Source: a candidate division WWE3 bacterium GW2011_GWB1_41_6
Lineage (GTDB): Bacteria; Patescibacteriota; WWE3; UBA101185; UBA10185
Length of the DNA stretch: 64,000 bases
Direction: 5' to 3'
NCBI GenBank assembly: GCA_000997355.1
Contig: LCBS01000001.1
Location: forward strand, 5,191 to 69,190
The notes beneath the pieces were generated by a model. That model searched no databases, had not been told where the DNA came from, and was given only the letters and a program-made list of their open reading frames with translations. Of the stretch, positions 21,147 through 58,855 are shown one piece after another. The position numbers and the translations under genes are program-made. Each line of letters starts with the position of its first letter. Positions within the stretch are counted from its first letter, which is position 1.

Positions 21147-21150
21147 CACG

Positions 21151-22557: not shown

Positions 22558-22558
22558 A

Positions 22559-22996: not shown

Positions 22997-23622
22997 TGAA
23001 CAAAAGCGGCATAAATAGAAAAACGCATACTCAGGGGTTTTCGCTTGTTGAAATAATATTGGCAGTATCGATCCTGGCAATGAGTATTACTTTTACGGTC
23101 GGGGCAGTAATATTTGGGCAACAAAGTATGGCAATAGCGGCATCAAGAAACCGAGCTGTATTTATTGCTGAAGAAGGACTTGAAGCAGTCAGGAACATCC
23201 GCAATCGTAACTTTTCCAACCTTTCTTCCGGTACCTATGACGTTCAAATTAATAACAACCGGTGGCAACTTACAACCCCCGGAACACAAACCGATGGTTT
23301 CGCGCGCACTATAACCATAGATGACATAGACTCAGACAGGAAAAAGGTCACATCCGAAGTAGAGTGGCCACAAACACTGCAACGGACGGGCAAAGTCACC
23401 TTAGTCACCTATCTGACCAATAACCAGGATTCCACCGGCGATATAACTCCGGAACCGGCAAGTACTTGTGCGCAGTATTGCCAATCTATAGGCACTTATT
23501 CAACGGGAACATGCAGAGCTAATACTAACCAGTGCAGACAAAATACCGAAAAATACGAACCCGGAGGCGACACATTTTGTACCGGAGGACCATCAGCCGA
23601 CACGTGCTGCTGCAAACCATGA
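22996..23622 (+). CDS. prepilin-type pilin with Cys-rich C-terminus
   Basis: QGFSLVEIILAVSILA; 9 Cys in the last 60 aa. Confidence 0.6.
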   Translation: MNKSGINRKTHTQGFSLVEIILAVSILAMSITFTVGAVIFGQQSMAIAASRNRAVFIAEEGLEAVRNIRNRNFSNLSSGTYDVQINNNRWQLTTPGTQTDGFARTITIDDIDSDRKKVTSEVEWPQTLQRTGKVTLVTYLTNNQDSTGDITPEPASTCAQYCQSIGTYSTGTCRANTNQCRQNTEKYEPGGDTFCTGGPSADTCCCKP

Positions 23623-24146
23623 TAAGTTTAAATAGAAAAGTGAATAAGAGAACCGCAGGATTCACCATGGTGGAACTCATATTATATGTTGCAACTTTGG
23701 CTCTGCTGTTATCATCAATTTTCTCGGTTTACCAATTATACTTGCGCTCACAGATCAAAAACAACGTGATCCAGGAAGTTGAGCAGCAAGGCGCGCAGGT
23801 AATGCAGGTTTTAACTCAAACCATCAGGAACTCGGAAAATGTTAACAGCCCTAATGCGGAAAACAGTTCCGATACTTTAAGTTTAAATGTGGTGGATACT
23901 GCCAAGGACCCTACTGTAATTTCGGTGTCGGATGGAACGATATATATAAAAGAGGGCACGGAAGCACCTGTTGCGCTAACATCTCCAAAAATAAACGCGG
24001 GGAGTGTAATGTTCAGCAACTTATCCACAGGTTCCGAATACTCCGTTATAACTATCACTTATACATTAAACTTTAATTCCAATTCCGACAGAAATGAGTA
24101 TAACTTTGAAAGAAATTTTTACGGGAGTGCCGGTCTCAGGCACTGA
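23619..24146 (+). CDS. prepilin-type pilin
   Basis: AGFTMVELILYVATLALL after the internal ATG; ATGA overlap with the upstream stop. Confidence 0.55.
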   Translation: MISLNRKVNKRTAGFTMVELILYVATLALLLSSIFSVYQLYLRSQIKNNVIQEVEQQGAQVMQVLTQTIRNSENVNSPNAENSSDTLSLNVVDTAKDPTVISVSDGTIYIKEGTEAPVALTSPKINAGSVMFSNLSTGSEYSVITITYTLNFNSNSDRNEYNFERNFYGSAGLRH

Positions 24147-24152
24147 GAAATT

Positions 24153-24578
24153 ATGAAAGTTACAGGTGTTAAATATATATTTAAACAAAAAGGGCACATC
24201 ACGCTAATCGCCGTAATAACAGTTACAGCTCTGGGATCAGCTATTGCTCTATCTTTACTAATGTTAGGTCTGGGATATTCTAAGAATAGTTATGTCCTGG
24301 AACGGTCTTACCAGGCAAAAGCATTAGCTGACGCCTGTGCGGAAGAAGCTTTGCAAAAAATAAATGATTCCACAAGCTACGAGGGAAGCGGAAATCTAGC
24401 TGAGGGTAACGGTTCATGTACTTATACCGTTATCAAAGGAACAGGGCAAAACCGGGAAATAACTACCCGGGCAACCGTGAGCGATGCTATTGGTGAGGTC
24501 ACAAGAAAAGTGAACGTACGTGTGGACCAAACCAACCCACGCATAAATATTGCCGGCTGGGAAGAAACAGCAGATTGA
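24153..24578 (+). CDS. pilin-like protein (PilX-like, degenerate signal)
   Basis: KGHITLIAVITVTALG hydrophobic N-terminus without the Glu5. Confidence 0.4.
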   Translation: MKVTGVKYIFKQKGHITLIAVITVTALGSAIALSLLMLGLGYSKNSYVLERSYQAKALADACAEEALQKINDSTSYEGSGNLAEGNGSCTYTVIKGTGQNREITTRATVSDAIGEVTRKVNVRVDQTNPRINIAGWEETAD

Positions 24579-24628
24579 AACTTAAGAAGCTCTTGTAATA
24601 AATACTGCTATGATAATATAATCTATCT

Positions 24629-25084
24629 ATGATAAAACCCTGCCTAAATCATAAACATTCCCAAGGATTCACATTACTGGAAATACTACTGGTTGTGGCA
24701 GCTATCGGGATATTGGCCGGTATTGTCATTGTTGCCGTAAACCCCGCAAAACAACTTGGACAGACAAAAAATGCTCAAAGGAAAAGTGACGTGAATACTA
24801 TATTAAACGCTGTTTACCAATATACGCTCGATAATAACGGCAACCTTCCACCAACCATCACTTCTACATCTACGGAAATCTGCAACACGGGAGGTACTTG
24901 CACAGGACTGATAGATCTTAGTGTACTTACTACGGACGAAGAGTATTTGGTCGCAATACCAAGAGACCCCAGCGCAGCAACTGTTGACGGTTCAGGATAC
25001 TATGTCCACCAATCAGCAAACGGGAGGATCACGGTATCCGCACCTAATGCTGAACTTGAAGAAATCATTTCCGTAACCCGTTAA
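24629..25084 (+). CDS. type IV pilin (probable major pilin)
   Basis: QGFTLLEILLVVAAIGILAGIV; last gene of the pilin run. Confidence 0.6.
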   Translation: MIKPCLNHKHSQGFTLLEILLVVAAIGILAGIVIVAVNPAKQLGQTKNAQRKSDVNTILNAVYQYTLDNNGNLPPTITSTSTEICNTGGTCTGLIDLSVLTTDEEYLVAIPRDPSAATVDGSGYYVHQSANGRITVSAPNAELEEIISVTR

Positions 25085-41594: not shown

Positions 41595-42599
41595 TTAGAA
41601 CATTCTGGAGTTATGGAACGACGTAACCAGCCTTTCCAGCAACTCAGGGGTTCCTCTCACCTTTCCAAAATACTGCTGGAACAACCCGATGAAGTATGCA
41701 AGCTTGGCCCTGTCTTCCGGAGATAGTTTTTCCGGGTTGGTAGTCTTATATACCTGAGAAACCCAAGTCAGGATACCAAGAATCTGCTTTCTGTACACTT
41801 CAGGCGTTGGACTTGACAGTGCCTCGTTCAATAACAAAACGTACGCATCCAGCTTGTCAGGGTCCAGCTCTAGTCTATCCTCATATACATGTGTTCCGAG
41901 ATACGATATCGGCATGTGTTCAAAACCCGCCGACCAACTTACCTGAAAATCATGCATTGAGATTATCTTTGCTACTGCCCTGTCTACCGCCCACAGATTT
42001 ACGGGTTTATCGAAAGAGAAACACATGTTATCGGCATACCTTGTATACGCTCTTAGCGGGAAGTTACCTAGGATAGCCAGTAAATCTTTGTCCATCGGAT
42101 CCACAACGGCGTTAAAAACATATGGTGTAGATACACATCCCTGTGGAGTAGTTCCTTCATACGTGAGCAGGGTGGCTATCAGTAAACGGACCTCCTTTGA
42201 CATCTTCCGGAACCTTCTTTCCAATAGCTTGTAAATCTTCTCCTTTGTCACATGATCGAAAGCATCCTTTAAATCAACCACTAATGCGGTTTTTGCTCCC
42301 TGGTGCGGTTTGATCGCGGGAATTATACCTTTGCCGGTATAGCAATAATCGGCACTTCCGCCGAATGTTTTTACAAACCACGACGCAAGTATCGACTGAA
42401 CATAAACCAGATCTTTTGTAGCCGGAACGATCCTTCTCTTTCCTCCACTTTTCTTTTTTACATAGAAGGGTTTCAAATATCGTTCCCTTTCGGCTAGTGA
42501 CACCAGTCTTGAGATTGTATTCCGGTACCTGACAAGTTCCTTGTCAAAAGACGGTGTCGTATTCTCTGCCATAGACCAGATAATACTCTCTACGAACAT
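41595..42599 (-). CDS. reverse transcriptase (compact, retron/group-II-like finger-palm)
   Basis: RT motifs 1-2 KKKSGGKRRIVPATKDLVYVQ, A VVDLKDAFDHV, B TPQGCVSTPYVFN, C YTRYADN (N where the second catalytic Asp is expected). Confidence 0.75.
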   Translation of the reverse strand: MFVESIIWSMAENTTPSFDKELVRYRNTISRLVSLAERERYLKPFYVKKKSGGKRRIVPATKDLVYVQSILASWFVKTFGGSADYCYTGKGIIPAIKPHQGAKTALVVDLKDAFDHVTKEKIYKLLERRFRKMSKEVRLLIATLLTYEGTTPQGCVSTPYVFNAVVDPMDKDLLAILGNFPLRAYTRYADNMCFSFDKPVNLWAVDRAVAKIISMHDFQVSWSAGFEHMPISYLGTHVYEDRLELDPDKLDAYVLLLNEALSSPTPEVYRKQILGILTWVSQVYKTTNPEKLSPEDRAKLAYFIGLFQQYFGKVRGTPELLERLVTSFHNSRMF

Positions 42600-44608: not shown

Positions 44609-46063
44609 ATGCTGCCAAGAACACTAACATTCGTCGATGTAGAGACAACAGGAGCGAGCCTTAGAAACAGCAGAATAATAGAGATAGGGATCATAAGAGT
44701 TGAGAACGATCAAGTCGTTGATACTTTTCATTCCCTTTTGGATCCGGAAACTCACATTCCTCCGGAGATACTTGAATTCACAGGTATAACCCAGGACGAA
44801 ATAAAAAATGCCCCCACATTCAGCCAAATAAAAGATACGGTCATGGAACTTTTTAACGACTCCGTTTTTGTAGCCCATAACGTGAAGTTCGACTACTCCT
44901 TTATAAAAAAAGAATTTGTAATGCTGGAGGAACAGTTCAACGCCAAAACCATGTGTACAGTAAACCTTTCACGAAGCCTTTTCCCTTTTTACCGCAAACA
45001 CAATCTTGACGCTTTGATCGAACGGCATGGAATTTCGTGTGTCCGCAGGCATAGGGCAATTGACGACGCCAAAGTGTTGGTCGAATTCTATCAAAAAATG
45101 CTGGATGAGATCCCTTCCGAAGTTTTGATACGGGCTTTTGATAAAGTTATGAAAAACGCCAATATTCCTACGAAAATAAAATCCCGTGTGATCGAAGGCC
45201 TTCCCGATACACCCGGGATATACGTTTTTTACGGAAAGAACGGAGTTCCGCTTTACGTGGGAAAAAGCGTGAATATAAAGTCACGGGTGAAATCCCACTT
45301 CGCAGGTTCGAATATTACGTCCAAGGACTTTAAACTATCCCAGCAGATTGAGGATATTTCTTTTATGAAAACGGCGGGAGAACTAGGTGCTTTATTAAAA
45401 GAAGCTGAACTGGTCAAGGAACTTCAGCCGGTATATAACTCACGTTTGCGGAATTATCAAAGCCTCGTGCTCTTAAAAAATGTTAAGAACGAAGAAGGCT
45501 ATGAAACTGTTGAGATTTTTGAGACAGACAACCCCACATATAACGAAGTGATAAACTCTTTGGGAATTTTTAAGTCGCGTTCCCAGGCAAAGAAAAGTCT
45601 GGAGGAAGTGAGGGATAAACACGATCTTTGCACAAAACTACTTGGGTTGGAAAGCACCAAAGGTTCGTGTTTCTTGCATAAACTGGAAAAATGCAACGGA
45701 GCCTGTGTGGGAAAAGAAAACCCGATGAAATACAATATGCGCTTTTATATGGCTTTTTCCGGAACGAAACTGACACAATGGCCGTTTGAAGGCCCTGTTG
45801 TAATATCAGAAGTTGATGAGCTGAACGGAAAGGTCGAACGTTTCCTCGTGAACAATTGGAGGGTTCTAAAGACGGTTGATGAAGCTGTTGAGGAGTTGGA
45901 TGACCGGGAGGAAAACGGGATGAAAGCAGGGATTATTGCTGATATGCAGGAAGATTTTATGTTCGATCTGGACAACTATAAGATCATCAAGAATTTTTTT
46001 AGGAAAAAGGAGAATTTGGAGAACATTAAGAGGATCGGAAGTTTTTCACAGTTGGAGTGGTAG
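44609..46063 (+). CDS. DnaQ-like 3'-5' exonuclease fused to a GIY-YIG nuclease domain
   Basis: Exo I FVDVETTG, Exo II/III HNVKFD ... HRAIDDA; GIY-YIG: GIYVFYGKNGVPLYVGKS ... R ... E. Confidence 0.75.
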   Translation: MLPRTLTFVDVETTGASLRNSRIIEIGIIRVENDQVVDTFHSLLDPETHIPPEILEFTGITQDEIKNAPTFSQIKDTVMELFNDSVFVAHNVKFDYSFIKKEFVMLEEQFNAKTMCTVNLSRSLFPFYRKHNLDALIERHGISCVRRHRAIDDAKVLVEFYQKMLDEIPSEVLIRAFDKVMKNANIPTKIKSRVIEGLPDTPGIYVFYGKNGVPLYVGKSVNIKSRVKSHFAGSNITSKDFKLSQQIEDISFMKTAGELGALLKEAELVKELQPVYNSRLRNYQSLVLLKNVKNEEGYETVEIFETDNPTYNEVINSLGIFKSRSQAKKSLEEVRDKHDLCTKLLGLESTKGSCFLHKLEKCNGACVGKENPMKYNMRFYMAFSGTKLTQWPFEGPVVISEVDELNGKVERFLVNNWRVLKTVDEAVEELDDREENGMKAGIIADMQEDFMFDLDNYKIIKNFFRKKENLENIKRIGSFSQLEW

Positions 46064-48385: not shown

Positions 48386-51300
48386 ATGAGGATCCTGCCA
48401 ACTCCAACCGATATTCGGAGGAAAAAACGTCTTAAACGGACGAAACTAACTTCGAAATTTGCTATATTTGTCGGAATGTCTCTGGTTTTGCTTATTGCAA
48501 TAGGGTCTCCCCTTGTTTCCAAAGAAATCCAAATAAAGAGAATCAAGACGGATAAAGAAGGTTTTCAGATGAACGAAAGTGTCGAGATCGATATGGGTTC
48601 GTATGAACCGGCTGAGCTGCACGTTTATCTTTTGCGCGGTGAGGAAAAGATCGAGATTAGTGCTGAGTCTATAACGATAGAAAACGGAACTTTATCTATT
48701 AAACCTAGCAAAGATATAAAACCCGGTGCTTACAACCTTATTATTCAGGACGGAACACGCGTAATATACGACAATAATTTTGCTTGGGGCGTTCTAGCCA
48801 TGAACTTCAACAAGTCAGTTTATTTGCCGGATGAAAAGGCTAATATCTCTATCGCGGTTCTGGATGATCAGGGAAATATGGTTTGCGACGCTAATCTAAC
48901 TTTAGTGGCAGAGAATGTGGAACTCGGCCTTACTACAACATTATCAACCGGGGATGATACCATCACAGTAAATCCCGATTGTTACAGGCACGGGTACACG
49001 CTCGATCCCGACTTTGAAACTGAGTACGGATTCGAAGGGATTGGCTCGTATGATTTTACACTTACTGCGGTAACGCAAAACGGTGAGTACGCAATAACCG
49101 ACCAAATAGAAGTCCGTGAAAGTGTTCCATTTGATGTCGAGCGACTTATTGCCACAAGAATATATCCTGCTGATAAATATCCTGTGAATATAGTTATCAC
49201 AGCAAACCAGGACTTTAGCGGTGTGATCCAGGAAACTATTCCTGCGGAATTTGAAATAACTCCGCCATTACACTCCACATCATATGAACTTATTGATGAG
49301 GCGGATAGTAAAAAGTATATTACATGGCAGGTTAACTTAACAGCCGGGGAAACAATTAATATCGGGTATTACTTTAAAGCTCCTGAAATAAGCCCACAGT
49401 TTTATTTGCTTGGAACTCTAAAGTTCTATGAGATCAAAGATGTGGTTGATAATGCACTGGATATTGAAGACATAGAAAATAATGAGGATTTATATGTTGA
49501 GTATGAAACGGAATCGAGTGAGTCCACTGAGTCAAGCGAATACGATAACCAGCAATCATTTCTAATAAGAAACGTCTATGCGGAGGAGTCCACTGAGTCG
49601 GGATTGAGCGTCGACGAATTGGAAGAATTAATGAACTTTGTTCCTCAATCACAAATCGTAGAAGAGGAAGAAAATGTATTGTCCGGCACAGTAATACAAG
49701 AAGAGTTCTTGGTTTTTGAGGAAACGCGCAAGTGGCAGCTTGCGATTGACGTTGTAGCCAAGATGATACTGCTTTGGGACAATGCTTCTTCCATCCCGAC
49801 TGATTGGACATGTTTATCGTGCGGATCGGGGGATTTTTATAACAGGTTTATCAGGGGGTCGGATGCTTACGGAACATCTCAAGGCGGAAACACCTCCCAC
49901 ACTCACTCCGATCCGGGAACCTTAACACTTGTTGATAGTTCAGGTGACTTAGGTACAGCCGGATCCAGCAATACCAACAAACCTCCCAAACAGGATCATA
50001 CCCATCAGATTGCCTCGCCCAGCGTTGCTTCGGGACTTTCAGCTGATAATTTACCAGCATATCGCACCTTAAGAGTAATACGTTATGATTTTGGCATACC
50101 GGCAACATTACCGGCGGGGGTAATTGCATATTTTGTTGACTCTGTACCGGGGGGCTGGACAAAAGTTTATAACGACGGAACCACACCCAGATACGCAAGG
50201 GGAGCAGATACCGTTACCACCGGAGGAAGCAATACCCATACCCATACATTACCCCTAAACAACTCGGCCGGACCCCTTGGAGTACAAAATGTTAAAGGTG
50301 CGGCAAGCGGTACCACTGTTGCCAGTTCCGGCCATACTCATAATAGTACCAGCGGTAGCTCAAACTCCGGGTCAAGTGAGCCGCCATACGTTAACGTCAC
50401 TCTTGCCCAAAAAGATTCAACGGGCGCTGTAACCACTAACATGATTGCCATGTTTGACAACACACCTCCGGCGGGAAATTGGACATTAAAGTCCGATTCA
50501 GGCAGCACTTTTTATCAAAGATTTCCCAGACCTACCGATACCAGCTTAGATACTACCAGTGATACCAGCGCGCACACCCATAGCAACTTTACTATCAATT
50601 CCAGCACCTTAACCGGAGGTACAGGTGACGGTATTGTGGGATCGGGTGGAACCGCTTTTAGCAGCACTTCCCATCAGCATGGAATTACCTTTAGCTTAGA
50701 CTCGCAGGATCATACTCCTGTATATTGGGATGCCATTTTTGCAAAAGCTACAAGTGCTCCCTCCCCTAACCTGGAACAAATCCATTACCACTGGAGGAAC
50801 GACAGCGATAATGAAGCTAACGCCACATCAGCTACAAGCGGAACGGAGGATACGTCACTCAATATAACTAGCGGTTCCAACAAAAGATTGAGAATCGGCG
50901 TTGCTAATGAAGGAGGTGCAGCTGCTGAGGATGTGACGTTCCGTCTGGAATACGGAGCCAAATCTACTACATGCGGTGCTATAGGCACTTGGGTAGATGT
51001 CGGAGCTGATGGAGACGACTGGGATATGTATAACACAACTAACCTTACGGACGGAAACGATACAACAGACATAAGCAATACAATAGGGGGCGTTACTAAT
51101 ACAAATCCTACATTCAAAACGCCAAACACAGGAGTAAAAGATGCCTCCTCGCAGGTTGGGGTTTTGGATCTAACCATAGAAGACTTTACAGAAATGGAGT
51201 TTTCGGTTACGGCTGCGGGTAGCGTGGGGGATTACTGTTTTAGACTAACAAATGCCGGATCAACCACGAACATAACTACTACCACATATGCACTTGCCAG

Positions 51301-52531
51301 TATTACCAACGCAAACACAGCCCCCAACACTCCAACAAGCCTTGTTCAAGCTAAAACGGATGATACGGTTCTAAGTACGGGTGATTGGACGGATGAAACG
51401 TCAGTCAAGTTCACCGCTACCGCGGATGATACAGACGCCAGCGACACCCTCTACCTTTGCGTAGAGAAAGACGACACAGACACTGCTTTCTCGGGAACCG
51501 AGGATCTTTGCGGGAACGGGGTAGCATACTCAGGAACACCAGTCTCTGTTTCGGTAACAATTACAAGTATAACTGATGCAACCCAATATCACTGGCAAGC
51601 CAGAGTCAAAGACGCCGCTAATGAGTATTCTTCGATGCAGGTATACGGAGCCAACTCCGACACAACCCCCGGAGCCGACCGTGATTTTGGCGTTGATACC
51701 ACAGCTCCGACGGGCGGCACGGTTTATGATGGAACGGAAGCCGGAGTAGACAAAGACTTCAGTACTGCATCGCTATCTCAACTATCTGCTAATTGGGGGA
51801 GTTTTAATGCTGCAGCTTCAGGGTTGCAGTATTATGAATACTCTATAGGAACAACCCAGGGTGGAGTTGATACCAAAGGTTGGACGAATGCAACAACCGA
51901 CACCTCCGTAACTGCTACCGGTTTAACATTAATGACATCCAAAATTTACTATTTTAATGTCCGGGCAACGGATAACGCAGATAATGTTCAATCGGCAGTC
52001 TCGTCAGACGGACAAGTTGTCGCACCAAGTTTGGCATTTAGTGTCACGCCGCCGTCCATCACGTTCACCAACCTTGGGCCAGGTAATAGTTATACAGCAA
52101 CGAACAACGCAACATTAACAACATCAACCAATGCGTATAACGGATACGTTATCAGAGCATATACAACCGATCTATTAAAATCCATAGACCTCACCGATAA
52201 TATAATTAATTTTAACGGAGGATCTTATGCCGCACCCGACGAATGGTTGAGCGGTGACAGAGGTTTTGGCTACTACACTTCCGACACTTCTGTTCAAGGT
52301 TCTAATATATTCAATCCCCCAACCTGTCTTGGTGGAGGCAGTTCACCCTGCTACGCACCGTTCTCTCAAACAGCACCGGGTGACATTATTGCGGATAATA
52401 CCGGTACAATTACAGGAACACCTATAACCGCGGAGGAATTTACAGTTAATTTTAAGGTTCAGGTTAACCCTACTCAGGCGACTTCCGATTATAGTACGAC
52501 CGTTGTTTATACGGTGACAGCGCAGTACTAA
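48386..52531 (+). CDS. giant cell-surface protein with tandem phage-tail-collar-like domains and FN3 domains
   Basis: Signal anchor; at least 3 repeats of (I/V)A(M/Y)F ... P.GW ... then T(S/N)HTH (collar-domain LPxHxH pattern); FN3 with DNADNVQS; 1381 aa. Confidence 0.7.
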   Translation: MRILPTPTDIRRKKRLKRTKLTSKFAIFVGMSLVLLIAIGSPLVSKEIQIKRIKTDKEGFQMNESVEIDMGSYEPAELHVYLLRGEEKIEISAESITIENGTLSIKPSKDIKPGAYNLIIQDGTRVIYDNNFAWGVLAMNFNKSVYLPDEKANISIAVLDDQGNMVCDANLTLVAENVELGLTTTLSTGDDTITVNPDCYRHGYTLDPDFETEYGFEGIGSYDFTLTAVTQNGEYAITDQIEVRESVPFDVERLIATRIYPADKYPVNIVITANQDFSGVIQETIPAEFEITPPLHSTSYELIDEADSKKYITWQVNLTAGETINIGYYFKAPEISPQFYLLGTLKFYEIKDVVDNALDIEDIENNEDLYVEYETESSESTESSEYDNQQSFLIRNVYAEESTESGLSVDELEELMNFVPQSQIVEEEENVLSGTVIQEEFLVFEETRKWQLAIDVVAKMILLWDNASSIPTDWTCLSCGSGDFYNRFIRGSDAYGTSQGGNTSHTHSDPGTLTLVDSSGDLGTAGSSNTNKPPKQDHTHQIASPSVASGLSADNLPAYRTLRVIRYDFGIPATLPAGVIAYFVDSVPGGWTKVYNDGTTPRYARGADTVTTGGSNTHTHTLPLNNSAGPLGVQNVKGAASGTTVASSGHTHNSTSGSSNSGSSEPPYVNVTLAQKDSTGAVTTNMIAMFDNTPPAGNWTLKSDSGSTFYQRFPRPTDTSLDTTSDTSAHTHSNFTINSSTLTGGTGDGIVGSGGTAFSSTSHQHGITFSLDSQDHTPVYWDAIFAKATSAPSPNLEQIHYHWRNDSDNEANATSATSGTEDTSLNITSGSNKRLRIGVANEGGAAAEDVTFRLEYGAKSTTCGAIGTWVDVGADGDDWDMYNTTNLTDGNDTTDISNTIGGVTNTNPTFKTPNTGVKDASSQVGVLDLTIEDFTEMEFSVTAAGSVGDYCFRLTNAGSTTNITTTTYALASITNANTAPNTPTSLVQAKTDDTVLSTGDWTDETSVKFTATADDTDASDTLYLCVEKDDTDTAFSGTEDLCGNGVAYSGTPVSVSVTITSITDATQYHWQARVKDAANEYSSMQVYGANSDTTPGADRDFGVDTTAPTGGTVYDGTEAGVDKDFSTASLSQLSANWGSFNAAASGLQYYEYSIGTTQGGVDTKGWTNATTDTSVTATGLTLMTSKIYYFNVRATDNADNVQSAVSSDGQVVAPSLAFSVTPPSITFTNLGPGNSYTATNNATLTTSTNAYNGYVIRAYTTDLLKSIDLTDNIINFNGGSYAAPDEWLSGDRGFGYYTSDTSVQGSNIFNPPTCLGGGSSPCYAPFSQTAPGDIIADNTGTITGTPITAEEFTVNFKVQVNPTQATSDYSTTVVYTVTAQY

Positions 52532-52977: not shown

Positions 52978-53535
52978 ATGGAAAACCCAACTATTTCTGA
53001 CATATATAAAATATTACTTAGGATAGAGGCTGATATTGTATCCATTAAAAAGACTTTATCTGAACACTCTATAATATTAAATGAGCATTCGAGAATCTTA
53101 GACGAGCATTCGAATATATTACAAAAGCATTCGAAAATTTTAGCAAGTCACACAAAAACACTTAATAGCCACTCCAAAATTTTGATAAATCACTCCAAAA
53201 TTTTGAAGGAACATTCCAAAAAATTTTTAGAACATGATAGTAAGTTTGACACACTCCAAAAACTTATTTTGGACAATCGCGGGAAAATAATGGTTCTGAA
53301 TGAAAGCGTAATAGAAATTAAGGGGGAGTTAGCTGCTTTTCGGCATGAAACAAATACCAGATTTGAGGAAATAGAAAACAAAATAAAGTTTCTGCCACAA
53401 CTTCAAAATAATATCGATAACTTCTTGACAGAGATAATAGAATACAGATCCGAACACGTTGCAATTGACAACAGACTTCATGATCACCGTAAGCGTATTT
53501 CCGATCTTGAGAAAAAGGCCGTAGATTTTAAATAA
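52978..53535 (+). CDS. alpha-helical protein built on eight HSxIL heptads
   Basis: NEHSRIL / DEHSNIL / QKHSKIL / ASHTKTL / NSHSKIL / INHSKIL / KEHSKKF, then a coiled-coil tail. Confidence 0.5.
   Translation: MENPTISDIYKILLRIEADIVSIKKTLSEHSIILNEHSRILDEHSNILQKHSKILASHTKTLNSHSKILINHSKILKEHSKKFLEHDSKFDTLQKLILDNRGKIMVLNESVIEIKGELAAFRHETNTRFEEIENKIKFLPQLQNNIDNFLTEIIEYRSEHVAIDNRLHDHRKRISDLEKKAVDFK
53059..53250 (+). repeat. 8-9 copies of a degenerate 21-bp tandem repeat inside the CDS
   Basis: gaacactctataatattaaat / gagcattcgagaatcttagac / gagcattcgaatatattacaa / aagcattcgaaaattttagca ... Confidence 0.7.
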
Positions 53536-53562: not shown

Positions 53563-54702
53563 ATGCGCTCTATATACTCACCCGCCCGTTTGGTTTGGCC
53601 TTTAAATAAAATAATACGAATATTACTTTTGTCACAAGCCCTTATACTCTTCTCAGCTTTTGCGATTTCTAAAACAGCTGTTGCTCAAGTCATCGACAAT
53701 AATACTCAAGAATCAACGTCGGTAATAATCGAAGAAGAGCCGTTAGATGAACCTACATTAGATTCCCAGTTGGAACCACCAGCTCCCGCGTACATCCCTG
53801 ATATGCAAAACCCCCAATCGGCACTAGGTGTTTCACCTGCCATAATTGAGATCATTTTAGATCCTGGACAATCCACAACAGAAATAGTGACGGTTTTTAA
53901 TATCACGAACTTCCCTATTCCCGTAAAAGGGTTGGCACACAATTTTACGGTAAACGAAAAGTTGTCTTTGACCGAAGATCAGGCAAATATATTTAATGCA
54001 TCGCAATGGATAGGTTTGGAACCGGCAGATTTTATCCTACAGCCAAATCAGGAGCAAGAGATTATCGTTACCATTAACACTCCGGAAAACGCAGAACCGG
54101 GAGGACACTATGCAACAGTATATTTTCAGCCGTTGATACCGGCGGAGTTCATTTCCCAACAAAACACATTTTTGACAGCGCGGGTAGGAATACTTACTTT
54201 TTTTATCGTTAAAGGTGACATTCGCGAAGAAGCAAATATTAAAAATTTATTAACTAAGAACCTTCACCAATCAGGCCCAATTATCTTTGATGTTCCTATT
54301 ATAAACACAGGTAACGTTCATATAATACCAACCGGATTTGTAACCATAAAAAACATGGCCGGAAAAGAAACGGCAAAACTGGAGATTTCAAAAGGCGCCG
54401 TTTTACCTGGTACAGAGCGTATACTTACCGCCCAGTGGCCGAAAAAACTATTATTTGGAAAATATTCAGCTCAAGTGGCAATCACATACAGCGCTGATAA
54501 TCGGATTAGCCAAAGCCCGGAAATAACCTTTTGGGTAATTCCATGGGTTATGATTATCATTATAATTCTCTCATTGACAGTGGTTTATCTACTACTTACA
54601 ATTATGAGAACACGTATTGTTCTTGCTCTGAAGATCCTCTTAGGTAAAGCCGATCCGAAAGACGTGAGAATTACGCGTAGTTCTAGATCGTCAAAAAATT
54701 AA
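53563..54702 (+). CDS. secreted protein with C-terminal TM anchor (paralog A; DUF916/COG1470-like architecture)
   Basis: Signal peptide; AEPGGHYATVYF; C-terminal TM helix followed by basic tail LALKILLGKAD. Confidence 0.5.
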   Translation: MRSIYSPARLVWPLNKIIRILLLSQALILFSAFAISKTAVAQVIDNNTQESTSVIIEEEPLDEPTLDSQLEPPAPAYIPDMQNPQSALGVSPAIIEIILDPGQSTTEIVTVFNITNFPIPVKGLAHNFTVNEKLSLTEDQANIFNASQWIGLEPADFILQPNQEQEIIVTINTPENAEPGGHYATVYFQPLIPAEFISQQNTFLTARVGILTFFIVKGDIREEANIKNLLTKNLHQSGPIIFDVPIINTGNVHIIPTGFVTIKNMAGKETAKLEISKGAVLPGTERILTAQWPKKLLFGKYSAQVAITYSADNRISQSPEITFWVIPWVMIIIIILSLTVVYLLLTIMRTRIVLALKILLGKADPKDVRITRSSRSSKN

Positions 54703-54726: not shown

Positions 54727-55809
54727 TTGCATAAATTAAGAAAGTTTTCCAGCGGAATCATCGTTTCTTTGGTTGTTTTCTTTGGACTACTGATGTTGCC
54801 CAGATTAGTAGCTCATGCTGCAACTTTGACTACGGGTTCTTTATCCATAAGTGATTCACGACCAAGTACAGCCTCTGTTACATATACAGCCACATTTAGC
54901 AACGTTTCAAACTCGGCAATAAAATGTATTCAGATGCAGTTTGACACTCAATCAGATGGGGCAGGTTCAGCACCAACAGGTATGGTAACTTCAGGTGCCA
55001 CTTATAACGCAGCAGGCTCTGATTATGTTCCGGATGTTCAATCTTGGACGGCAGCCAGCTCAACAGCAGGATTGGTTAAAATAACCAACGCAACCGGGGA
55101 AACTGCTGCAGGAGGAACAGGCATTGTTGTTCTAACAGGTATAACTAACGGGAGTACAGCGGAAACATCTTACTTCATGATTCTTACCACATTTACGGAT
55201 GACGCCTGTACGGGTGGAAATGAGGTCGATACGGGAACTGTAAAGTTCATTTATACCACAGGTCAACTGGTATCTCTTACGATTGATCCTTCTTTGACTT
55301 TTACGGTTGATGCGGTAGCTGATACCGAAACCGTAAACGGCGAGGACCTGACAATTACAACAACCGACGGAACAATACCGTTCACCGGAGTCACAGTATC
55401 TGCAAATGGCGTTGGTGCACATTTGTTAACAGTTAATACTAATGCAGGCGGAGGTTACACCGTATACACAAGATATACCGCAGCGTTGACAAACGTAGCT
55501 TCGGACACAATTACAGATCATACCGGAACCAATGCTCAACCAAGCTCATTTCCTTCTGTGGGAACGGAAGCCTTTGGGTATACTACAACTGACACCACAC
55601 TAACTGCAACCGGTGACGGAGCAGATAGGTTTACAACACCTGCAAATCAGTGGGCAGCGTTCACAACCGGCAATTTAGAAGTTGCCTACAGCGCAGGTCC
55701 CGTAAGCAACGAGGAAACAACGATCGGTTATCAGGTAGGAGTTGCAGGAGCAACAGAAGCCGGTGTTTACAACACAACGATAATTCTAACAGCTACCCCT
55801 ACATACTAA
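54727..55809 (+). CDS. secreted Thr/Gly/Ala-rich beta protein (TTG start)
   Basis: RBS aaggaggtga 7 nt upstream of TTG; signal peptide; low-complexity T/G/A-rich body. Confidence 0.5.
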   Translation: MHKLRKFSSGIIVSLVVFFGLLMLPRLVAHAATLTTGSLSISDSRPSTASVTYTATFSNVSNSAIKCIQMQFDTQSDGAGSAPTGMVTSGATYNAAGSDYVPDVQSWTAASSTAGLVKITNATGETAAGGTGIVVLTGITNGSTAETSYFMILTTFTDDACTGGNEVDTGTVKFIYTTGQLVSLTIDPSLTFTVDAVADTETVNGEDLTITTTDGTIPFTGVTVSANGVGAHLLTVNTNAGGGYTVYTRYTAALTNVASDTITDHTGTNAQPSSFPSVGTEAFGYTTTDTTLTATGDGADRFTTPANQWAAFTTGNLEVAYSAGPVSNEETTIGYQVGVAGATEAGVYNTTIILTATPTY

Positions 55810-55894: not shown

Positions 55895-56860
55895 ATGACT
55901 AAACCAAAAATTAAATGGCATCAATCAGTTATTACTGTACTCATTGGGTTGGGACTAACACTTATCACATCCATAGTATTAGCTCAGGAACAACCCGGTT
56001 CCCAAGGATCCTCGGGAACCGGTATGGCGATATCACCACCGACTTTTGAACTTACGGGAAATCCCGGAGATGTCATTGACAACACAATCAAGCTTACCAA
56101 CCTCTCAAACCGACCTATAACCATTGGTGTAGATCGCCGTAATTTTACTGCCGTCGGTGAAGAAGGTGCTGTGGGCTTAACGGACGAGGAAACAACTTTT
56201 TCCTTAGCTAGTTGGATCACGGTAAGTCCTTCAGAAGTAACGATAGAACCCGGACAAAGTCAGATCTTTTCTTTCAGAACATCGGTCCCATACAATGCGG
56301 AACCTGGAGGACATTTTGGGTCGGTAATTTTTAAAACGGGCGGGCAGACTCCCGGTTCATCAGGTGCTGCAGTAGCCCAGGAGGTAGCGTCGCTGATTCT
56401 TTTAAGAGTAGCGGGACAAACAACGGTCAGCGGAGAAATCCTTTCATTTACCACAAACAAATCATTTTATGACTACGGACCCATAGACTTCGAAGCAAGG
56501 GTAATAAACGAAGGTAGTGTTCATATCAAGCCAATTGGGTCTATCACGATAAATAATATGTTCGGTAAGCAGGTGGATAAGATTGCCATAGAACCGAAAA
56601 ATGTTCTGCCTGACGCAACCAGGCGAATCCCGGCAAGCTGGAATAAAAAATATCTTATTGGTAAATATACCGCAACTGTCGTATTTTCATATGGAACTAA
56701 CGGTGAAACTATGATAAAATCTACCACATTTAGCGGATTTCCCGTTAAAGAAGGGGGGATCATCTTAGCAGCATTACTCATACTGCTTGCCATACTGTTC
56801 AAAATGAGAAAAAGACTACGCCTGGCATTTAAAATTCTCTTTGGAAATTACAAAGCTTAG
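55895..56860 (+). CDS. secreted protein with C-terminal TM anchor (paralog B)
   Basis: AEPGGHFGSVIF aligns with paralog A, and the C-terminal halves are collinear; tail LAFKILFGNYKA. Confidence 0.5.
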   Translation: MTKPKIKWHQSVITVLIGLGLTLITSIVLAQEQPGSQGSSGTGMAISPPTFELTGNPGDVIDNTIKLTNLSNRPITIGVDRRNFTAVGEEGAVGLTDEETTFSLASWITVSPSEVTIEPGQSQIFSFRTSVPYNAEPGGHFGSVIFKTGGQTPGSSGAAVAQEVASLILLRVAGQTTVSGEILSFTTNKSFYDYGPIDFEARVINEGSVHIKPIGSITINNMFGKQVDKIAIEPKNVLPDATRRIPASWNKKYLIGKYTATVVFSYGTNGETMIKSTTFSGFPVKEGGIILAALLILLAILFKMRKRLRLAFKILFGNYKA

Positions 56861-56880: not shown

Positions 56881-57825
56881 ATGAGATTTATAAGAGCGAC
56901 AACTGCCATATGTATAATACTAACTGTCTTTACACTTGCTGTTAGACACTCCCAAGCAACTTCAATTAATGTAAGTCTTATTGTGGGTGATACCCGGCTT
57001 ACGTTTCAGGGAAAAACATCGCCTAGTTCGCAAGTAACTTTTACAGAAAATAACAGTGTTATCGGAACTACGGCGTCTGATAATACGGGATATTTCGAAA
57101 AAGAGTTCATTTACAGTTATCCTGCGGATGATATACACAATATTACAATTTATTCGGTTAACGGACTTGGTCAGATGTCCAATCCCATTCTTTACAGTGT
57201 CTTTTTATCCGAATTCACTAACACTACGATTGGCAATCTAATATTACCGCCAACGATTGCTTTATCGGCATTAACAACCGTACAAGGTACCAGCATAACA
57301 GCCAGCGGCTACACCGTTCCAGACTCCTTACTAACCCTTTTATTTTTTAATTCTGCTACCACTCTGAACTCAACTTCTACAGCGGATGGTTACTGGGAGG
57401 TTGCGATAGACACAACGGCGTTAAACTCGGGTACACATACTGTATACGGGAAAACCACTGCTGAAGGGGGGTATCTGAGCGATGAAAGCGAGCACAAAAA
57501 CTTTATAGTCACATCTCCGGCCGCCGCAGACTCCGGTAGTGATGACAATGGAGGGGACAATAATGATGACTCAAGCGATTCAGAGTCAGGCAGTTCATCA
57601 ACCGGAACAACAACACAGGATGTATCCAACCTAATTTGCGCCCTTCCAAACTTTCTCAAATTATTTGATTGGGATTTTAACTGTAAGATCAATTTTGATG
57701 AATACGCCTCTTCAGCACGAAGTTGGGTTGGTTTATGGAGAATAGACCAAGAGCCCTGCGACATAAACAGTGACGGCAGGTGCGATATTAGGGATTTTTC
57801 TATACTGCTTTACCATGTATACTAA
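56881..57825 (+). CDS. secreted protein with C-terminal dockerin-like module
   Basis: Two 12-residue Ca-binding loops: DWDFNCKINFDE and DINSDGRCDIRD, about 24 aa apart. Confidence 0.5.
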   Translation: MRFIRATTAICIILTVFTLAVRHSQATSINVSLIVGDTRLTFQGKTSPSSQVTFTENNSVIGTTASDNTGYFEKEFIYSYPADDIHNITIYSVNGLGQMSNPILYSVFLSEFTNTTIGNLILPPTIALSALTTVQGTSITASGYTVPDSLLTLLFFNSATTLNSTSTADGYWEVAIDTTALNSGTHTVYGKTTAEGGYLSDESEHKNFIVTSPAAADSGSDDNGGDNNDDSSDSESGSSSTGTTTQDVSNLICALPNFLKLFDWDFNCKINFDEYASSARSWVGLWRIDQEPCDINSDGRCDIRDFSILLYHVY

Positions 57826-57835: not shown

Positions 57836-58855
57836 ATGTTCATGCCGGGAGTATCCATTTTATTTAAGTTTGTATCCATCACCTTATCTTCCTGGTTGCT
57901 TGTTCATGTTCTTGCTATTTTCGGAGGATTTATAGCCTTTGCCTACCCTATCTGGTGGTATCTTTCCCCGGAAAATACAGTCTGTCTTGTTTGCCATGCA
58001 GGAAAAGAACAGAAGTGGTGCTCATTTTGTAGACGTGCGATTAGCAAAACCCAGTTATCACCAAAAAGCATCCGTTCGGCTTTTCTGAACGGAATATTGA
58101 TCTTATTCTTTTCCGTAATTTCCGGATTGGTGGTATATGCCGAGTACGCCCTTATTACAACATATAACCCCTCACTCACCGGAAAAAGCGCGTCGTTCCT
58201 TGTCCCAAGTAGTAACAATAAGCACAAGATCGGTGAGATATTCCCCATGGAGGTTTTTGTTGAAGGTATAAAAACACCTATTAATACTGTTCAAATAGAT
58301 CTTTCCTTTGATCCCTCTACGCTCGAAGCTATAAAAATTTCGACAGATGACTCTTTTGCGACTGTTTTTATTGATAAAGTAATCAACAATGAGGTTGGCT
58401 ATACCAGACTGACCGGAGGTCTACCAAATCCCGGCTATGATCAAAGCAAAGGTTACTTCGGAACGGTGTATTTTAAAGGAAAAATTCCCGGTGTGGCGTT
58501 GGTGGAGTTCTTACCTACATCGGTTGTTCTGGCCAATAACGGGCGCGGAACTAATGTTCTTAAAACTCTTGGTACGGCATCGTTTCTGATTTTACCTGAA
58601 ACCGTTAGTCCGGAAGAAACCGCAAGTCAGGAAGTTAAATTAAATCCGCTTGTTCTCGGAGAATCCACGGATAATACAAAACTCTATTTATACGAGGAAA
58701 ATGATATTTTAGGAACGCAGTCGGAAAGCACGATGGAAGAAGTGGACGTAAGTGAACAAAGTATTTTCACACTGTTTCTGGACGTGCTCCATAAAGTCGA
58801 CGAGCTGATAATATCATTTTGGAAAAACATTTTTGATTTTGTGTTAGGAAAATAA
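57836..58855 (+). CDS. membrane protein with zinc-ribbon-like tetracysteine and a cohesin-like beta domain
   Basis: Two TM helices flank CLVCH ... CSFCRR; extracytoplasmic INTVQIDLSFDPSTLEAIKI ... GYFGTVYFKGKIPGVALVEF. Confidence 0.45.
   Translation: MFMPGVSILFKFVSITLSSWLLVHVLAIFGGFIAFAYPIWWYLSPENTVCLVCHAGKEQKWCSFCRRAISKTQLSPKSIRSAFLNGILILFFSVISGLVVYAEYALITTYNPSLTGKSASFLVPSSNNKHKIGEIFPMEVFVEGIKTPINTVQIDLSFDPSTLEAIKISTDDSFATVFIDKVINNEVGYTRLTGGLPNPGYDQSKGYFGTVYFKGKIPGVALVEFLPTSVVLANNGRGTNVLKTLGTASFLILPETVSPEETASQEVKLNPLVLGESTDNTKLYLYEENDILGTQSESTMEEVDVSEQSIFTLFLDVLHKVDELIISFWKNIFDFVLGK

What the first reader, a model, noticed from the sequence alone, without database searches (positions are those of the whole stretch)
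49751..50756. Tandem phage-tail-collar-like domains with LPxHTH motifs inside a 1381-aa cell-surface protein
At least three repeats have the pattern hydrophobic-A-(M/Y)-F ... P-(A/G)-G-(N/W)W-T ... then T(S/N)HTH, SGHTH, SAHTH or SHQHG. This is characteristic of the phage tail collar / MdpB domain, whose C-terminal HxH residues coordinate metal in phage fibre tips. A cellular giant adhesin built from fibre-tip receptor-binding modules plus FN3 spacers is unusual. It implies recruitment of phage receptor-binding folds for cell-cell recognition.
Basis: partly seen in the sequence, partly recalled or inferred. Interest (0 to 1): 0.55.

Follow-up and report, generated by a model that had tools for sequence, protein, structure and literature searches.

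The report
Single-chain triple phage-fibre-tip module on pilus adhesin
A giant secreted protein of an uncultured CPR bacterium carries three fused, histidine-rich copies of a phage tail-fibre "collar" domain, apparently replacing a phage trimer within one chain, and ends in a pilin domain, so it is probably the adhesive subunit of a recently described CPR pilus.

Summary
Residues 453-792 of the 1381-aa ORF (48386-52531, +) are exactly three tandem units of about 112 aa, each with two HxH motifs at fixed spacing.

Pfam's Collar model does not hit the window protein. Remote homology is nonetheless well supported:
- Window-type units match the tripled units of Actinoplanes phage phiAsp2 tail proteins Pas28/Pas29 (hhalign 99.2%).
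- Those match validated Collar domains (97.7%).
- Intermediate proteins pass Pfam's Collar threshold.
- The units lack the Collar helix segment.

New findings:
- The family is large and unannotated (4,907 clusters at 50% identity).
- Units almost always come as 3, 6 or 9, are contiguous, and are position-specific. This argues for a single-chain pseudo-trimer rather than a trimerising fibre.
- The window is cellular (candidate division WWE3).
- The protein has a signal-type N-terminus and a C-terminal domain like the "Pam" pilin CTD.
- It heads a conserved operon with a pilin and two membrane-anchored chaperone-like paralogues.

Metal binding, the pseudo-threefold geometry and incorporation into the pilus are inferred, not shown. 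I rate it a new variant of a known kind.

The parts
48386..52531 (+). ORF of 1381 aa (KKS17586.1 / A0A0G0Z640, annotated 'hypothetical protein', candidate division WWE3)
   Evidence: The same gene with the same neighbours is found on 8 metagenome contigs.
48461..48517 (+). N-terminal hydrophobic segment (aa 26-44) after a basic stretch; a Sec signal or signal-anchor
   Evidence: Kyte-Doolittle scan: this is the only hydrophobic segment in the protein.
48536..49435 (+). N-terminal beta-sandwich (Ig-like) region, aa 51-350
   Evidence: Only weak Pfam hits: MG2 E 0.042 and InlK_D3 E 0.66. The assignment is tentative.
49436..49741 (+). Acidic linker, aa 351-452 (29% Asp+Glu)
   Evidence: Composition analysis.
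49742..50101 (+). Collar-like unit 1 (aa 453-572); HxH at 49898-49906 and 49997-50005
   Evidence: (unit HMM 95.8 bits).
50102..50425 (+). Collar-like unit 2 (aa 573-680); HxH at 50237-50245 and 50333-50341
   Evidence: (87.4 bits).
50426..50761 (+). Collar-like unit 3 (aa 681-792); HxH at 50573-50581 and 50672-50680
   Evidence: (86.0 bits).
50762..52015 (+). Beta-sandwich spacer region, aa 793-1210 (NEW3-like and Ig_Rha78A_N-like, with a 'QYHWQARVKD' motif)
   Evidence: Weak Pfam hits. The C-terminal half is 50% identical to the syntenic adhesin in L019.
52058..52528 (+). C-terminal Pam-pilin-CTD-like domain (aa 1225-1381)
   Evidence: NCBIfam NF058581 CPR_Pam_pilin_C, model positions 6-148 of 148, E 1.4e-4, 22 bits, below the cutoff of 55. 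BLASTP to the CTD of ORF 54727 gives E 1e-4, aligned to both C-termini. Cross-genome links give 5e-6 and 1e-5. AF2 gives pLDDT 85.7. Foldseek matches are donor-strand pilins CfaB, CooA, CsuA/B, PapH and FimA.
53563..54702 (+). Chaperone-like protein (379 aa) with signal plus C-terminal TM helix; candidate PamC/PamD analogue
   Evidence: Paralogue of ORF 55895 (32% identity, E 2e-37). TM topology. Orthologues in L019. Function inferred from the preprint's description.
54727..55809 (+). Pam-type pilin-like protein (360 aa)
   Evidence: NF058581 E 2.1e-8, 34 bits, below the cutoff of 55. 44% identical to L019_12822.
55895..56860 (+). Second chaperone-like paralogue (321 aa) with signal plus C-terminal TM helix
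   Evidence: Weak Pfam fn3_5 and WxLIP_PGBD hits.
56881..57825 (+). Secreted Big_6-like protein (314 aa), conserved in the syntenic operon
   Evidence: E 1e-11 to L019_14904.

Best explanation
The 1381-aa ORF encodes a secreted, surface-displayed adhesin of a CPR (WWE3) bacterium.

The module. The central module (aa 453-792) is three fused, helix-less relatives of the phage tail Collar domain. I propose that the three units pack around a pseudo-threefold axis and take the place of the three chains of a trimeric phage fibre tip. Each unit would give its two HxH motifs to two axial layers of six histidines. These layers would bind metal (Fe2+ or Zn2+, as in T4 gp37 and gp12) and staple the knob together. 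The hypervariable Thr/Ser/Gly-rich loops between the layers would form the ligand-binding surface.

Display. Ig-like spacers hold the knob away from the cell. A C-terminal Pam-pilin-type domain would accept a donor strand from the pilin encoded two genes downstream. Two membrane-anchored chaperone-like paralogues would assist. The knob would then sit on, most likely at the distal end of, a Pam-type pilus and mediate attachment to a host cell or surface.

Shown here:
- The triplet and its conservation, including conservation of the histidines.
- Homology to phage triplets and to Collar.
- The 3/6/9 rule and the position specificity of the units.
- The cellular context.
- Similarity of the CTD to Pam and chaperone-usher pilins.
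- Synteny of the operon.

Inferred:
- The pseudo-threefold geometry.
- Metal binding.
- Ligand binding.
- Incorporation into the pilus and the position within it.
For: Repeat reality:
- Unit pairs align at E of about 1e-9.
- Six HxH are found against 0.45 expected, with 0 of 20,000 shuffles reaching six.

Conservation:
- The second HxH is invariant and the first is 92% conserved.
- Site B is intact in all three units in 90% of 190 triplets.

Obligate triplet:
- Of 171 family proteins, 143 have 3 units, 22 have 6 and 1 has 9; none has 4 or 5.
- Units abut, with a median gap of 2 aa.
- 536 of 570 units best-match the same position in another protein.
- All 7 fetched loci hold 3 or 6 units.

Compact fold: AF2 on the triplet gives pTM 0.73 with 141 residues at pLDDT >= 90. 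Low confidence is confined to the inter-HxH loops.

Phage link:
- Foldseek against BFVD hits phiAsp2 Pas29 (5.9e-16) and Pas28 (1.3e-15), then proteins named 'Phage tail collar domain containing' (8.9e-5 and weaker).
- Pas28 and Pas29 each hold three units and lie just after the tape-measure-like gene.

Collar homology:
- hhalign of window-type against Pas-type units gives 99.2%, E 1e-19.
- Pas-type against 9 validated Collar domains gives 97.7%, E 2e-12.
- Reversed controls are <= 0.5%.
- Direct window-type against Collar gives P 5e-5 to 2e-3, versus 0.06-0.17 for reversed controls.
- Intermediates P0227, P0253 and P0254 pass Pfam's Collar gathering score (28.5-33.5 bits against 24).
- The only PDB sequence hits of the profile are T4 gp12 and gp37, both sub-significant.
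- gp12's axial His445/His447 aligns with the family's HxH block.

HxH as a metal site: T4 gp37 binds seven iron ions through HxH motifs (PMC11705849).

Variable loops: entropy is 3.29 bits in the loops against about 2.1 in the scaffold.

Pilus link. The preprint 10.64898/2026.03.03.709456 notes 'a tail fibre-like protein' co-localised with pam operons.
Against: - Pfam Collar, PHROGs and NCBIfam give no hit on the window module.
- Foldseek of the triplet model against the PDB finds nothing significant. The top hit is 6ov6, a phage fibre tip, at E 0.5.
- Model coordinates could not be inspected, so neither the pseudo-threefold packing nor the His6 geometry was verified.
- HxH losses are independent between units, not concerted, and site A is complete in only 63% of triplets.
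- Both Pam_pilin_C matches are below NCBIfam's curated cutoff (22 and 34 bits against 55). Foldseek E-values for the CTD are only 3e-3 to 0.2.
- Only 2 of 7 examined loci, and 9 of about 147 representatives, combine the triplet with a Pam CTD.
- The top-150 list is ranked by total score, so proteins with one or two units would be under-sampled.
- The preprint does not say what its 'tail fibre-like protein' is.
Confidence: 0.55

Rival explanations
1. The three units are independent tandem domains, beads on a string. The module is an ordinary repeat-containing adhesin segment. The fixed number three is only inherited from an old triplication, and the histidines bind metal or ligand locally within each unit.
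For: No coordinates were inspected. HxH losses in the three units are statistically independent. Foldseek finds no trimeric PDB template.
Against: Tandem-repeat adhesins normally vary freely in copy number. Here 166 of 171 proteins have 3, 6 or 9 units and none has 4 or 5. The units abut without linkers. The positions are individually conserved. AF2 places the three units confidently relative to one another, with pTM 0.73. The single-unit relatives (Collar, T4 gp12) are homotrimers with the HxH on the axis (established knowledge; gp12 His445/447).
Confidence: 0.2
2. The protein is a free-standing or wall-associated surface adhesin, not a pilus subunit. Its C-terminal domain is just another Ig-like sandwich that happens to resemble the neighbouring pilin.
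For: The NF058581 score of 22 bits is far below the cutoff of 55. Foldseek E-values are modest. Most family members use other display devices: an exosortase-type neighbour, SipW/M73 neighbours, and a pilin-like N-terminus near PilB/PilC.
Against: The match covers the whole Pam CTD model and ends exactly at the C-terminus in 10 independent proteins. Reciprocal adhesin-to-pilin CTD hits are found across genomes. The five-gene synteny is conserved, with chaperone-like proteins that have the signal plus C-terminal TM topology described for PamC/PamD. The top structural neighbours are donor-strand pilins and tip-adhesin complexes.
Confidence: 0.25
3. The gene is a prophage or tailocin tail-fibre gene, or a remnant of one, and not a cellular adhesin.
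For: The module is homologous to phiAsp2 tail proteins. Collar domains are typical of phage fibres.
Against: No phage structural, terminase or integrase genes were found in the 64 kb; the sampled genes are housekeeping, pilus, sensor-kinase and transporter genes. PHROGs gives no hit. The protein has a signal-type N-terminus and a pilin-type C-terminus. The context is conserved in several WWE3 genomes and in L019.
Confidence: 0.03
4. The HxH-rich module is chiefly a metal-capturing or enzymatic domain (iron or zinc scavenging, or a metallo-hydrolase) rather than a structural or adhesive knob.
For: Twelve conserved histidines. The literature speculates that HxH fibres act as iron ligands.
Against: No conserved Asp, Glu or Cys or other catalytic-type residues; only His, Trp, Gly and Pro are near-invariant. 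The homologues are fibre-tip proteins in which HxH metals are buried and structural (established knowledge for T4 gp12/gp37; iron binding by gp37 HxH). The architecture is that of an adhesin.
Confidence: 0.05

Closest known systems
Pfam PF07484 'Phage Tail Collar Domain' (T4 gp12 short tail fibre; MdpB-like proteins)
   Same: The motif blocks are collinear: a beta-strand with PxGW, then (PDL)RG, GG..T-H / HxH, and (Q/P)PY with a terminal strand. Homology is supported through intermediates. gp12's axial HxH (His445/447) aligns with the family's HxH block.
   Different: The window units do not hit the Pfam model. The roughly 25-aa helix segment 'YxxLFxxIGxxYGxGxxTF' is deleted. Three units are fused in one chain instead of one unit per chain of a homotrimer. 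There are two HxH layers per unit.
Actinoplanes phage phiAsp2 Pas28 / Pas29 (tail proteins downstream of the tape-measure-like gene; Pas29 annotated 'possible receptor recognizing protein; contains HXHY motifs')
   Same: The same tripled unit architecture. Foldseek gives E of about 1e-15 with TMq 0.52. The unit HMM gives 1e-9 to 1e-16 per unit. hhalign gives 99.2%.
   Different: The phage units carry four HxH each, three of them in a 7-residue register, and retain more of the Collar 'CDG...PDLR' signature. They are embedded in virion tail proteins, not in a secreted pilin-ended protein.
T4 gp37 long-tail-fibre tip (PDB 2XGF) and related HxH iron-binding fibres and spikes (R-pyocin fibres, P2 gpV, Bizionia phage C24 6OV6)
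   Same: Recurrent HxH motifs separated by G/S/T-rich segments. These are the only PDB sequences or folds that surface, though sub-significantly.
   Different: Those are intertwined homotrimers whose His6 sites are built from three chains. Here the three contributors would come from one chain. No significant sequence or structure match was obtained.
Two-domain tip adhesins of chaperone-usher pili (FimH, PapG, CfaE, CsuE)
   Same: The logic is a receptor-binding module followed by a C-terminal donor-strand-accepting pilin domain, encoded with chaperones and pilins. The CTD model matches CfaB, CooA, PapH, FimA and the CsuE/CfaE complexes.
   Different: The passenger here is about 1,200 aa and its binding module is a phage-type Collar/HxH triplet rather than a lectin jelly-roll. 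There is no usher, and the chaperone-like proteins are membrane-anchored.
Pam pilus system of CPR bacteria (PamA/PamB/PamT; preprint 10.64898/2026.03.03.709456; NCBIfam NF058581)
   Same: The C-terminal domain matches CPR_Pam_pilin_C end to end. The operon holds a pilin and two signal-plus-C-terminal-TM chaperone-like paralogues. The preprint notes a co-localised 'tail fibre-like protein'.
   Different: Scores are below the curated cutoff. The organism is WWE3, not Saccharimonadia or Microgenomatia. The described pilins have a 9-strand NTD rather than a 1,200-aa passenger. The preprint does not characterise the tail-fibre-like protein.

Membership tests
Pfam PF07484 Collar | Match to the PF07484 HMM at or above the gathering score (24 bits) | tested here: not met
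   No hit for the whole protein or for aa 456-790 even at E<=10. None of the 25 close family members hits either.
Pfam PF07484 Collar | N-terminal beta-strand followed by P-x-G-W (profile positions 1-22) | tested here: met
   Present in all three units. It aligns to gp12 340-360, the start of the Pfam Collar match, and to 9 validated Collar domains.
Pfam PF07484 Collar | Central segment CDGq...YpxLFxxIGxxYGxGdGxtTFxLPDLRGR (profile positions about 23-57) | tested here: not met
   hhalign opens a gap of about 25-30 residues across this segment. Intermediates show 'GWALCNGSENTPDLREKF', that is CDG joined directly to PDLR. Pfam matches only positions 1-22 of 57 in them.
Pfam PF07484 Collar | Evolutionary relatedness to bona fide members (profile-profile comparison, intermediates) | tested here: met
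   Window-type to Pas-type gives 99.2%, E 9.6e-20. Pas-type to Collar gives 97.7%, E 2.1e-12. Reversed controls are <= 0.5%. P0227, P0253 and P0254 pass the Collar gathering score.
Pfam PF07484 Collar | One domain per chain, assembled as a homotrimer (as in T4 gp12) | tested here: not met
   There are three units per chain, in fixed triplets. The oligomeric state itself is not testable here.
HxH metal-binding trimeric fibre tips (T4 gp37/gp12 type) | Conserved His-x-His motifs | tested here: met
   Six HxH are found. Site B is 98% conserved and site A 92% over 570 units.
HxH metal-binding trimeric fibre tips (T4 gp37/gp12 type) | Three HxH related by a (pseudo-)threefold axis, forming an octahedral His6 site | not testable with these tools
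   Structure prediction returns no coordinates. The only support is indirect: pTM 0.73, the 3/6/9 rule, and the neutral concerted-loss test.
HxH metal-binding trimeric fibre tips (T4 gp37/gp12 type) | Bound Fe2+ or Zn2+ | not testable with these tools
   This needs ICP-MS or anomalous diffraction.
Pam pilus pilin (NCBIfam NF058581 CPR_Pam_pilin_C) | HMM score at or above the curated cutoff (55 bits) | tested here: not met
   22.0 bits (E 1.4e-4) for aa 1201-1381. The neighbouring pilin-like ORF also scores below the cutoff, at 34.4-38.1 bits.
Pam pilus pilin (NCBIfam NF058581 CPR_Pam_pilin_C) | Full-length CTD located at the extreme C-terminus | tested here: met
   Model positions 6-148 of 148 end at residue 1381. 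The same holds in 9 other family representatives.
Pam pilus pilin (NCBIfam NF058581 CPR_Pam_pilin_C) | Truncated Ig-like fold of donor-strand-exchange pilins | tested here: inconclusive
   AF2 gives pLDDT 85.7. Foldseek top hits are TLP-1a/b, CfaB (prob 0.98), CooA, CsuA/B, PapH and FimA, but E is only 3e-3 to 0.2.
Pam pilus pilin (NCBIfam NF058581 CPR_Pam_pilin_C) | Operon with a pilin and membrane-anchored (C-terminal TM) chaperones; signal peptides on all components | tested here: met
   Topology, paralogy, and five-gene synteny with L019. The chaperone function is inferred from the preprint's description.
Pam pilus pilin (NCBIfam NF058581 CPR_Pam_pilin_C) | Physical incorporation into the filament by donor-strand exchange | not testable with these tools
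   This needs multimer modelling or pilus proteomics.

The most novel reading that the evidence does not exclude
The triplet is a single-chain, metal-stapled mimic of a trimeric phage receptor-binding tip. In CPR bacteria it is mounted on the distal end of Pam pili as the host-recognition adhesin. Episymbiotic bacteria and phages would then use the same receptor-binding device. The unannotated 'triple-collar' family (thousands of clusters in CPR, Chloroflexi, Asgard archaea and phages) would be a general prokaryotic adhesion module that can be plugged into at least four display systems: the Pam pilin CTD, type IV pilin N-termini, exosortase-type anchors and SipW/TasA-type secretion.
Probability: 0.35. 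Interest if true: 0.8.

Novelty: new variant of a known kind. Interest (0 to 1): 0.64.

Why it matters
- **An unannotated domain family.** It defines a large family (at least 4,907 clusters at 50% identity, with no Pfam, NCBIfam or PHROGs model) and ties it to the phage Collar/HxH lineage. Thousands of 'hypothetical' giant surface proteins could then be annotated.
- **An example of gene fusion replacing oligomerisation.** The strict 3/6/9 rule suggests that a homotrimeric, metal-stapled fibre tip was converted into a single-chain pseudo-trimer. This is useful for protein evolution studies and for engineering monomeric receptor-binding knobs.
- **A candidate Pam pilus adhesin.** The 2026 Pam preprint states that how these filaments recognise the host is unknown. 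It mentions only in passing a co-localised 'tail fibre-like protein'. This work gives that question a concrete, testable candidate.
- **Shared hardware between phages and CPR.** It hints that phages and CPR episymbionts share receptor-recognition devices.

Tried and rejected
1. Direct family scans (Pfam, PHROGs, NCBIfam) of the module gave no hits.
2. PDB sequence searches gave only sub-significant hits to gp12, gp37 and an SU10 fibre.
4. DGR target hypothesis. An RT gene lies 6 kb upstream, but there are no TR/VR-like repeats and the RT is retron-like. Rejected.
5. Prophage or tailocin origin of the locus. Rejected on context.
6. Concerted loss of HxH across units, as a signature of shared axial sites. 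Losses are independent, so the test is uninformative.
7. tblastn of the module against 50,697 phage records found only phiAsp2 at E 0.7, so sequence alone does not find the phage relatives.
The single-sequence scan gave only 3 loci.
9. A literature search on 'MdpB' returned unrelated papers. Searches for 'tail collar' together with CPR or Patescibacteria found nothing.
10. The preprint's supplement does not identify its 'tail fibre-like protein'.
11. A Pfam WxL or fn3 assignment for the C-terminal and spacer regions is not supported.
Full report
**1. The observation**

The window holds an ORF at 48386..52531 (+) of 1381 aa. The finding's coordinates correspond to aa 456-790. Self-comparison shows exactly three tandem units: aa 453-572, 573-680 and 681-792. 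Pairwise they are 31-35% identical, with BLASTP E of about 1e-9.

Each unit has the same order of elements:
- a hydrophobic strand,
- P-x-(G)-W-T,
- (F/Y)-x-R-(G/P),
- a first HxH,
- a Thr/Ser/Gly-rich loop of about 28 aa,
- a second HxH,
- P-x-Y followed by a hydrophobic strand.

The six HxH sit at a fixed spacing (33/32/33 aa within units, period 112-113 aa). Residue shuffles of the region give 0.45 HxH on average and never reach six in 20,000 trials.

Three details need correction. There are exactly three units, each with two HxH. The literal 'LPxHTH' motif is not present. The 'FN3 spacers' are unverified, since only weak Ig-like Pfam hits were found.

**2. Is it a Collar domain?**

Pfam PF07484 does not match the protein or the region even at E<=10. 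PHROGs and NCBIfam also give nothing. None of 25 close homologues hits Collar.

A profile of the homologues finds, out of 177,635 PDB sequences, only T4 gp12 (E 0.28) and the T4 gp37 tip (E 1.6). These are the right proteins, but the hits are not significant.

An AlphaFold2 model of aa 441-800 gave pLDDT 75.5 and pTM 0.73, with low confidence only in the loops between HxH motifs. It has no significant PDB neighbour. The top hit is 6OV6 at E 0.5, which is a phage long-tail-fibre tip.

In the viral structure library the same model matches several proteins:
- Actinoplanes phage phiAsp2 Pas29 (E 5.9e-16) and Pas28 (E 1.3e-15), both at TMq 0.52.
- 'Phage tail collar domain containing' proteins (8.9e-5, 0.14, 0.63).

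Pas28 and Pas29 lie directly after the tape-measure-like gene. Pas29 is annotated as a possible receptor-recognising protein with HxHY motifs. Each contains three units that match my unit HMM at 1e-9 to 1e-16.

To test Collar homology properly I fished genuine Collar proteins from the phage collection, using an approximate probe as bait only. I retrieved eight of them plus T4 gp12. For gp12 I confirmed the Collar assignment with a Pfam scan, and the other eight align to it along the Collar signature.

Profile-profile comparison of my unit profile with this set gave P = 5e-5 to 2e-3, against 0.06-0.17 for reversed controls. The conserved blocks were collinear, with a gap of about 25-30 residues over the Collar helix segment.

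A search with the Pas29 triplet then supplied intermediates. It returned 87 proteins, including a close relative of the window module (P0002). It also returned three proteins that pass Pfam's Collar gathering score (28.5-33.5 bits against 24), though only over profile positions 1-22 of 57. Their sequence, for example 'IPTGWALCNGSENTPDLREKF', shows the Collar 'CDG' joined directly to 'PDLR'.

At the profile level the chain is strong:
- window-type against Pas-type units: 99.2%, E 1e-19;
- Pas-type against Collar: 97.7%, E 2e-12;
- reversed controls: <= 0.5%.

I conclude that the units are remote, helix-less relatives of the Collar domain. They are not members of PF07484 as that model is defined.

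**3. The triplet rule**

An exhaustive search with the single-unit profile found 4,907 cluster representatives at E<=1e-3, of which 534 are at E<=1e-30.

Among the 171 family proteins available to me, 143 have 3 units, 22 have 6 and 1 has 9. None has 4 or 5. Units abut, with a median gap of 2 aa. In 536 of 570 cases a unit's best match in another protein is the unit at the same position. The triplication is therefore ancient and the three positions are individually constrained. All seven fetched loci obey the rule, as do 69 of 88 Pas-type proteins; the rest are mostly fragments on 1-3 kb contigs.

One caveat applies. The top-150 list is ranked by total score, which disfavours proteins with one or two units. 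The informative fact is the absence of 4 and 5 alongside 22 cases of 6.

Single-unit relatives such as T4 gp12 are homotrimers whose HxH (His445/447) lies on the threefold axis (established knowledge). Together with the confident relative placement of the units in AF2 (pTM 0.73), the most economical reading is a single-chain pseudo-trimer. I could not inspect coordinates, so this geometry is inferred.

A test for concerted loss of HxH across units was neutral. Site B is intact in all three units in 90% of triplets and site A in 63%, but the losses are independent.

The inter-HxH loops are the most variable part, at 3.29 bits against about 2.1 for the scaffold, with lengths of 12-42 aa. This fits a binding surface.

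That HxH motifs bind iron in fibre tips is documented for T4 gp37 (PMC11705849).

**4. Context: cellular, and a pilus operon**

The window is from candidate division WWE3 (Katanobacteria, CPR). The protein is KKS17586.1 / A0A0G0Z640, 'hypothetical'.

The 64 kb encode a Na+/H+ exchanger, PilB/PilC, histidine kinases, a P-type ATPase, DsbD, a rhomboid protease and a Cho-like nuclease. No phage structural genes were found. The gene recurs with the same neighbours on eight contigs.

The protein has a single N-terminal signal-type hydrophobic segment.

Its last ~157 aa have several links to Pam pilins:
- They match NCBIfam CPR_Pam_pilin_C over the whole model (positions 6-148 of 148, E 1.4e-4, below the cutoff).
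- They align to the C-terminal domain of the ORF at 54727-55809, itself a Pam-pilin-like protein at E 2e-8, right up to both C-termini.
- An AF2 model of this domain (pLDDT 85.7) has donor-strand-exchange pilins as its best PDB neighbours: CfaB (prob 0.98), CooA, CsuA/B, PapH, FimA and the CsuE/CfaE complexes. E-values are modest.

ORFs 53563 and 55895 are paralogues with a signal plus a C-terminal TM helix. The 2026 preprint on the Pam pilus describes exactly this topology for the chaperones PamC and PamD.

The five-gene arrangement is conserved in another genome (L019), whose adhesin has two triplets plus the same CTD. Nine other family representatives also end in this CTD.

The preprint remarks that 'a tail fibre-like protein' is consistently co-localised with pam operons, but it does not characterise it. 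It also states that how the pili recognise the host is unknown.

Other family members sit in different surface-display contexts:
- next to an exosortase-like gene;
- next to SipW-like and M73 genes;
- with a pilin-like N-terminus beside PilB/PilC.

The triplet is therefore a portable surface module, and the Pam pilus is one of its carriers.

**5. Mechanism proposed**

The protein is secreted by Sec. The pseudo-trimeric, probably metal-stapled Collar/HxH knob is held on Ig-like spacers. The C-terminal pilin domain is complemented by the donor strand of the next pilin with the help of the two anchored chaperone-like proteins. This would place the knob on the pilus, most plausibly at its distal end, where its variable loops bind a partner cell or surface.

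Shown and inferred steps are listed in the Best explanation section.

**6. Comparison and novelty**

It works like a FimH- or PapG-type tip adhesin whose binding module is a phage receptor-binding tip. It is not a member of PF07484: two defining features were tested and not met. It is not a certified member of NF058581 either, because the score is below the cutoff.

I found no description of tripled single-chain Collar modules or of their link to pili.

I rate it a new variant of a known kind and of above-average interest. The phage kinship is right. The trimerisation and 'unusual' claims are superseded. The direction of transfer is undetermined.

Noticed in passing
window 41595-42599 (-): A 333-aa reverse transcriptase (Pfam RVT_1 1.5e-13), next to a rhomboid protease gene. 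Its best NCBIfam matches are retron St85 (1.4e-28) and a TIR-retron anti-phage RT, all below their cutoffs. No TR/VR-type repeats occur anywhere in the window, so it is probably a retron-like defence RT rather than a DGR.
   Followed up: partly
window 19347-25084 (+): A type IV pilus gene cluster. It holds PilB (T2SSE+MshEN), a PilC (T2SSF) with an unusual C-terminal SH3_3 domain, and then four small ORFs that may be pilins. The genome therefore encodes a second, independent pilus system 25 kb from the Pam-like operon.
   Followed up: no
window 52978-53535 (+): A 185-aa ORF lies between the adhesin and the first chaperone-like gene. It is made of 14-aa 'xHSKILxxHSxxL' coiled-coil-like repeats, seen as a 42-nt-offset (14-aa) DNA self-match between 53062-53192 and 53104-53234. 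It has no signal sequence and is absent from the syntenic operon in L019. Its role is unknown.
   Followed up: partly
P0253 (Promethearchaeota MAG), P0199/P0204 (Chloroflexi, Vicinamibacterales): The tripled Collar/HxH module is not confined to CPR. An Asgard archaeal protein with N- and C-terminal TM segments carries it, with a Collar hit at Pfam's gathering level. Non-CPR bacteria carry it too.
   Followed up: no
L018 (context of P0003) and the P0002-P0004 N-termini: Short triplet proteins begin with an 'AxFTDxETS' camelysin/TasA-type signal and are flanked by Peptidase_M73 and a SipW-like S26 signal peptidase. This suggests display on TasA-like fibres. The best PDB neighbours of the Pam-like CTD were 'TLP-1a/b' filament structures, whose nature I did not look into.
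   Followed up: no
L017 (context of P0020); C-termini of P0014, P0016 and P0020: These triplet proteins end in a 'PTLTE-hydrophobic-basic' tail, and P0020 is immediately followed by a gene with a faint Exosortase_EpsH hit. This may be a new C-terminal sorting signal and sortase pair in these uncultured lineages.
   Followed up: no
window 57836-58855 (+): The last gene of the operon encodes a 339-aa membrane protein with an N-terminal Cys-rich 'CLVCHAGKEQKWCSFC' motif and a weak cohesin-domain hit (E 0.001). No counterpart was detected in L019.
   Followed up: no
window 44609-46063 (+): A fusion of an RNase_T (DEDDh) exonuclease with GIY-YIG, UvrC_M and Cho_C domains. This Cho-like nuclease is conserved at over 90% identity in many WWE3 genomes (14 cluster members).
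   Followed up: no
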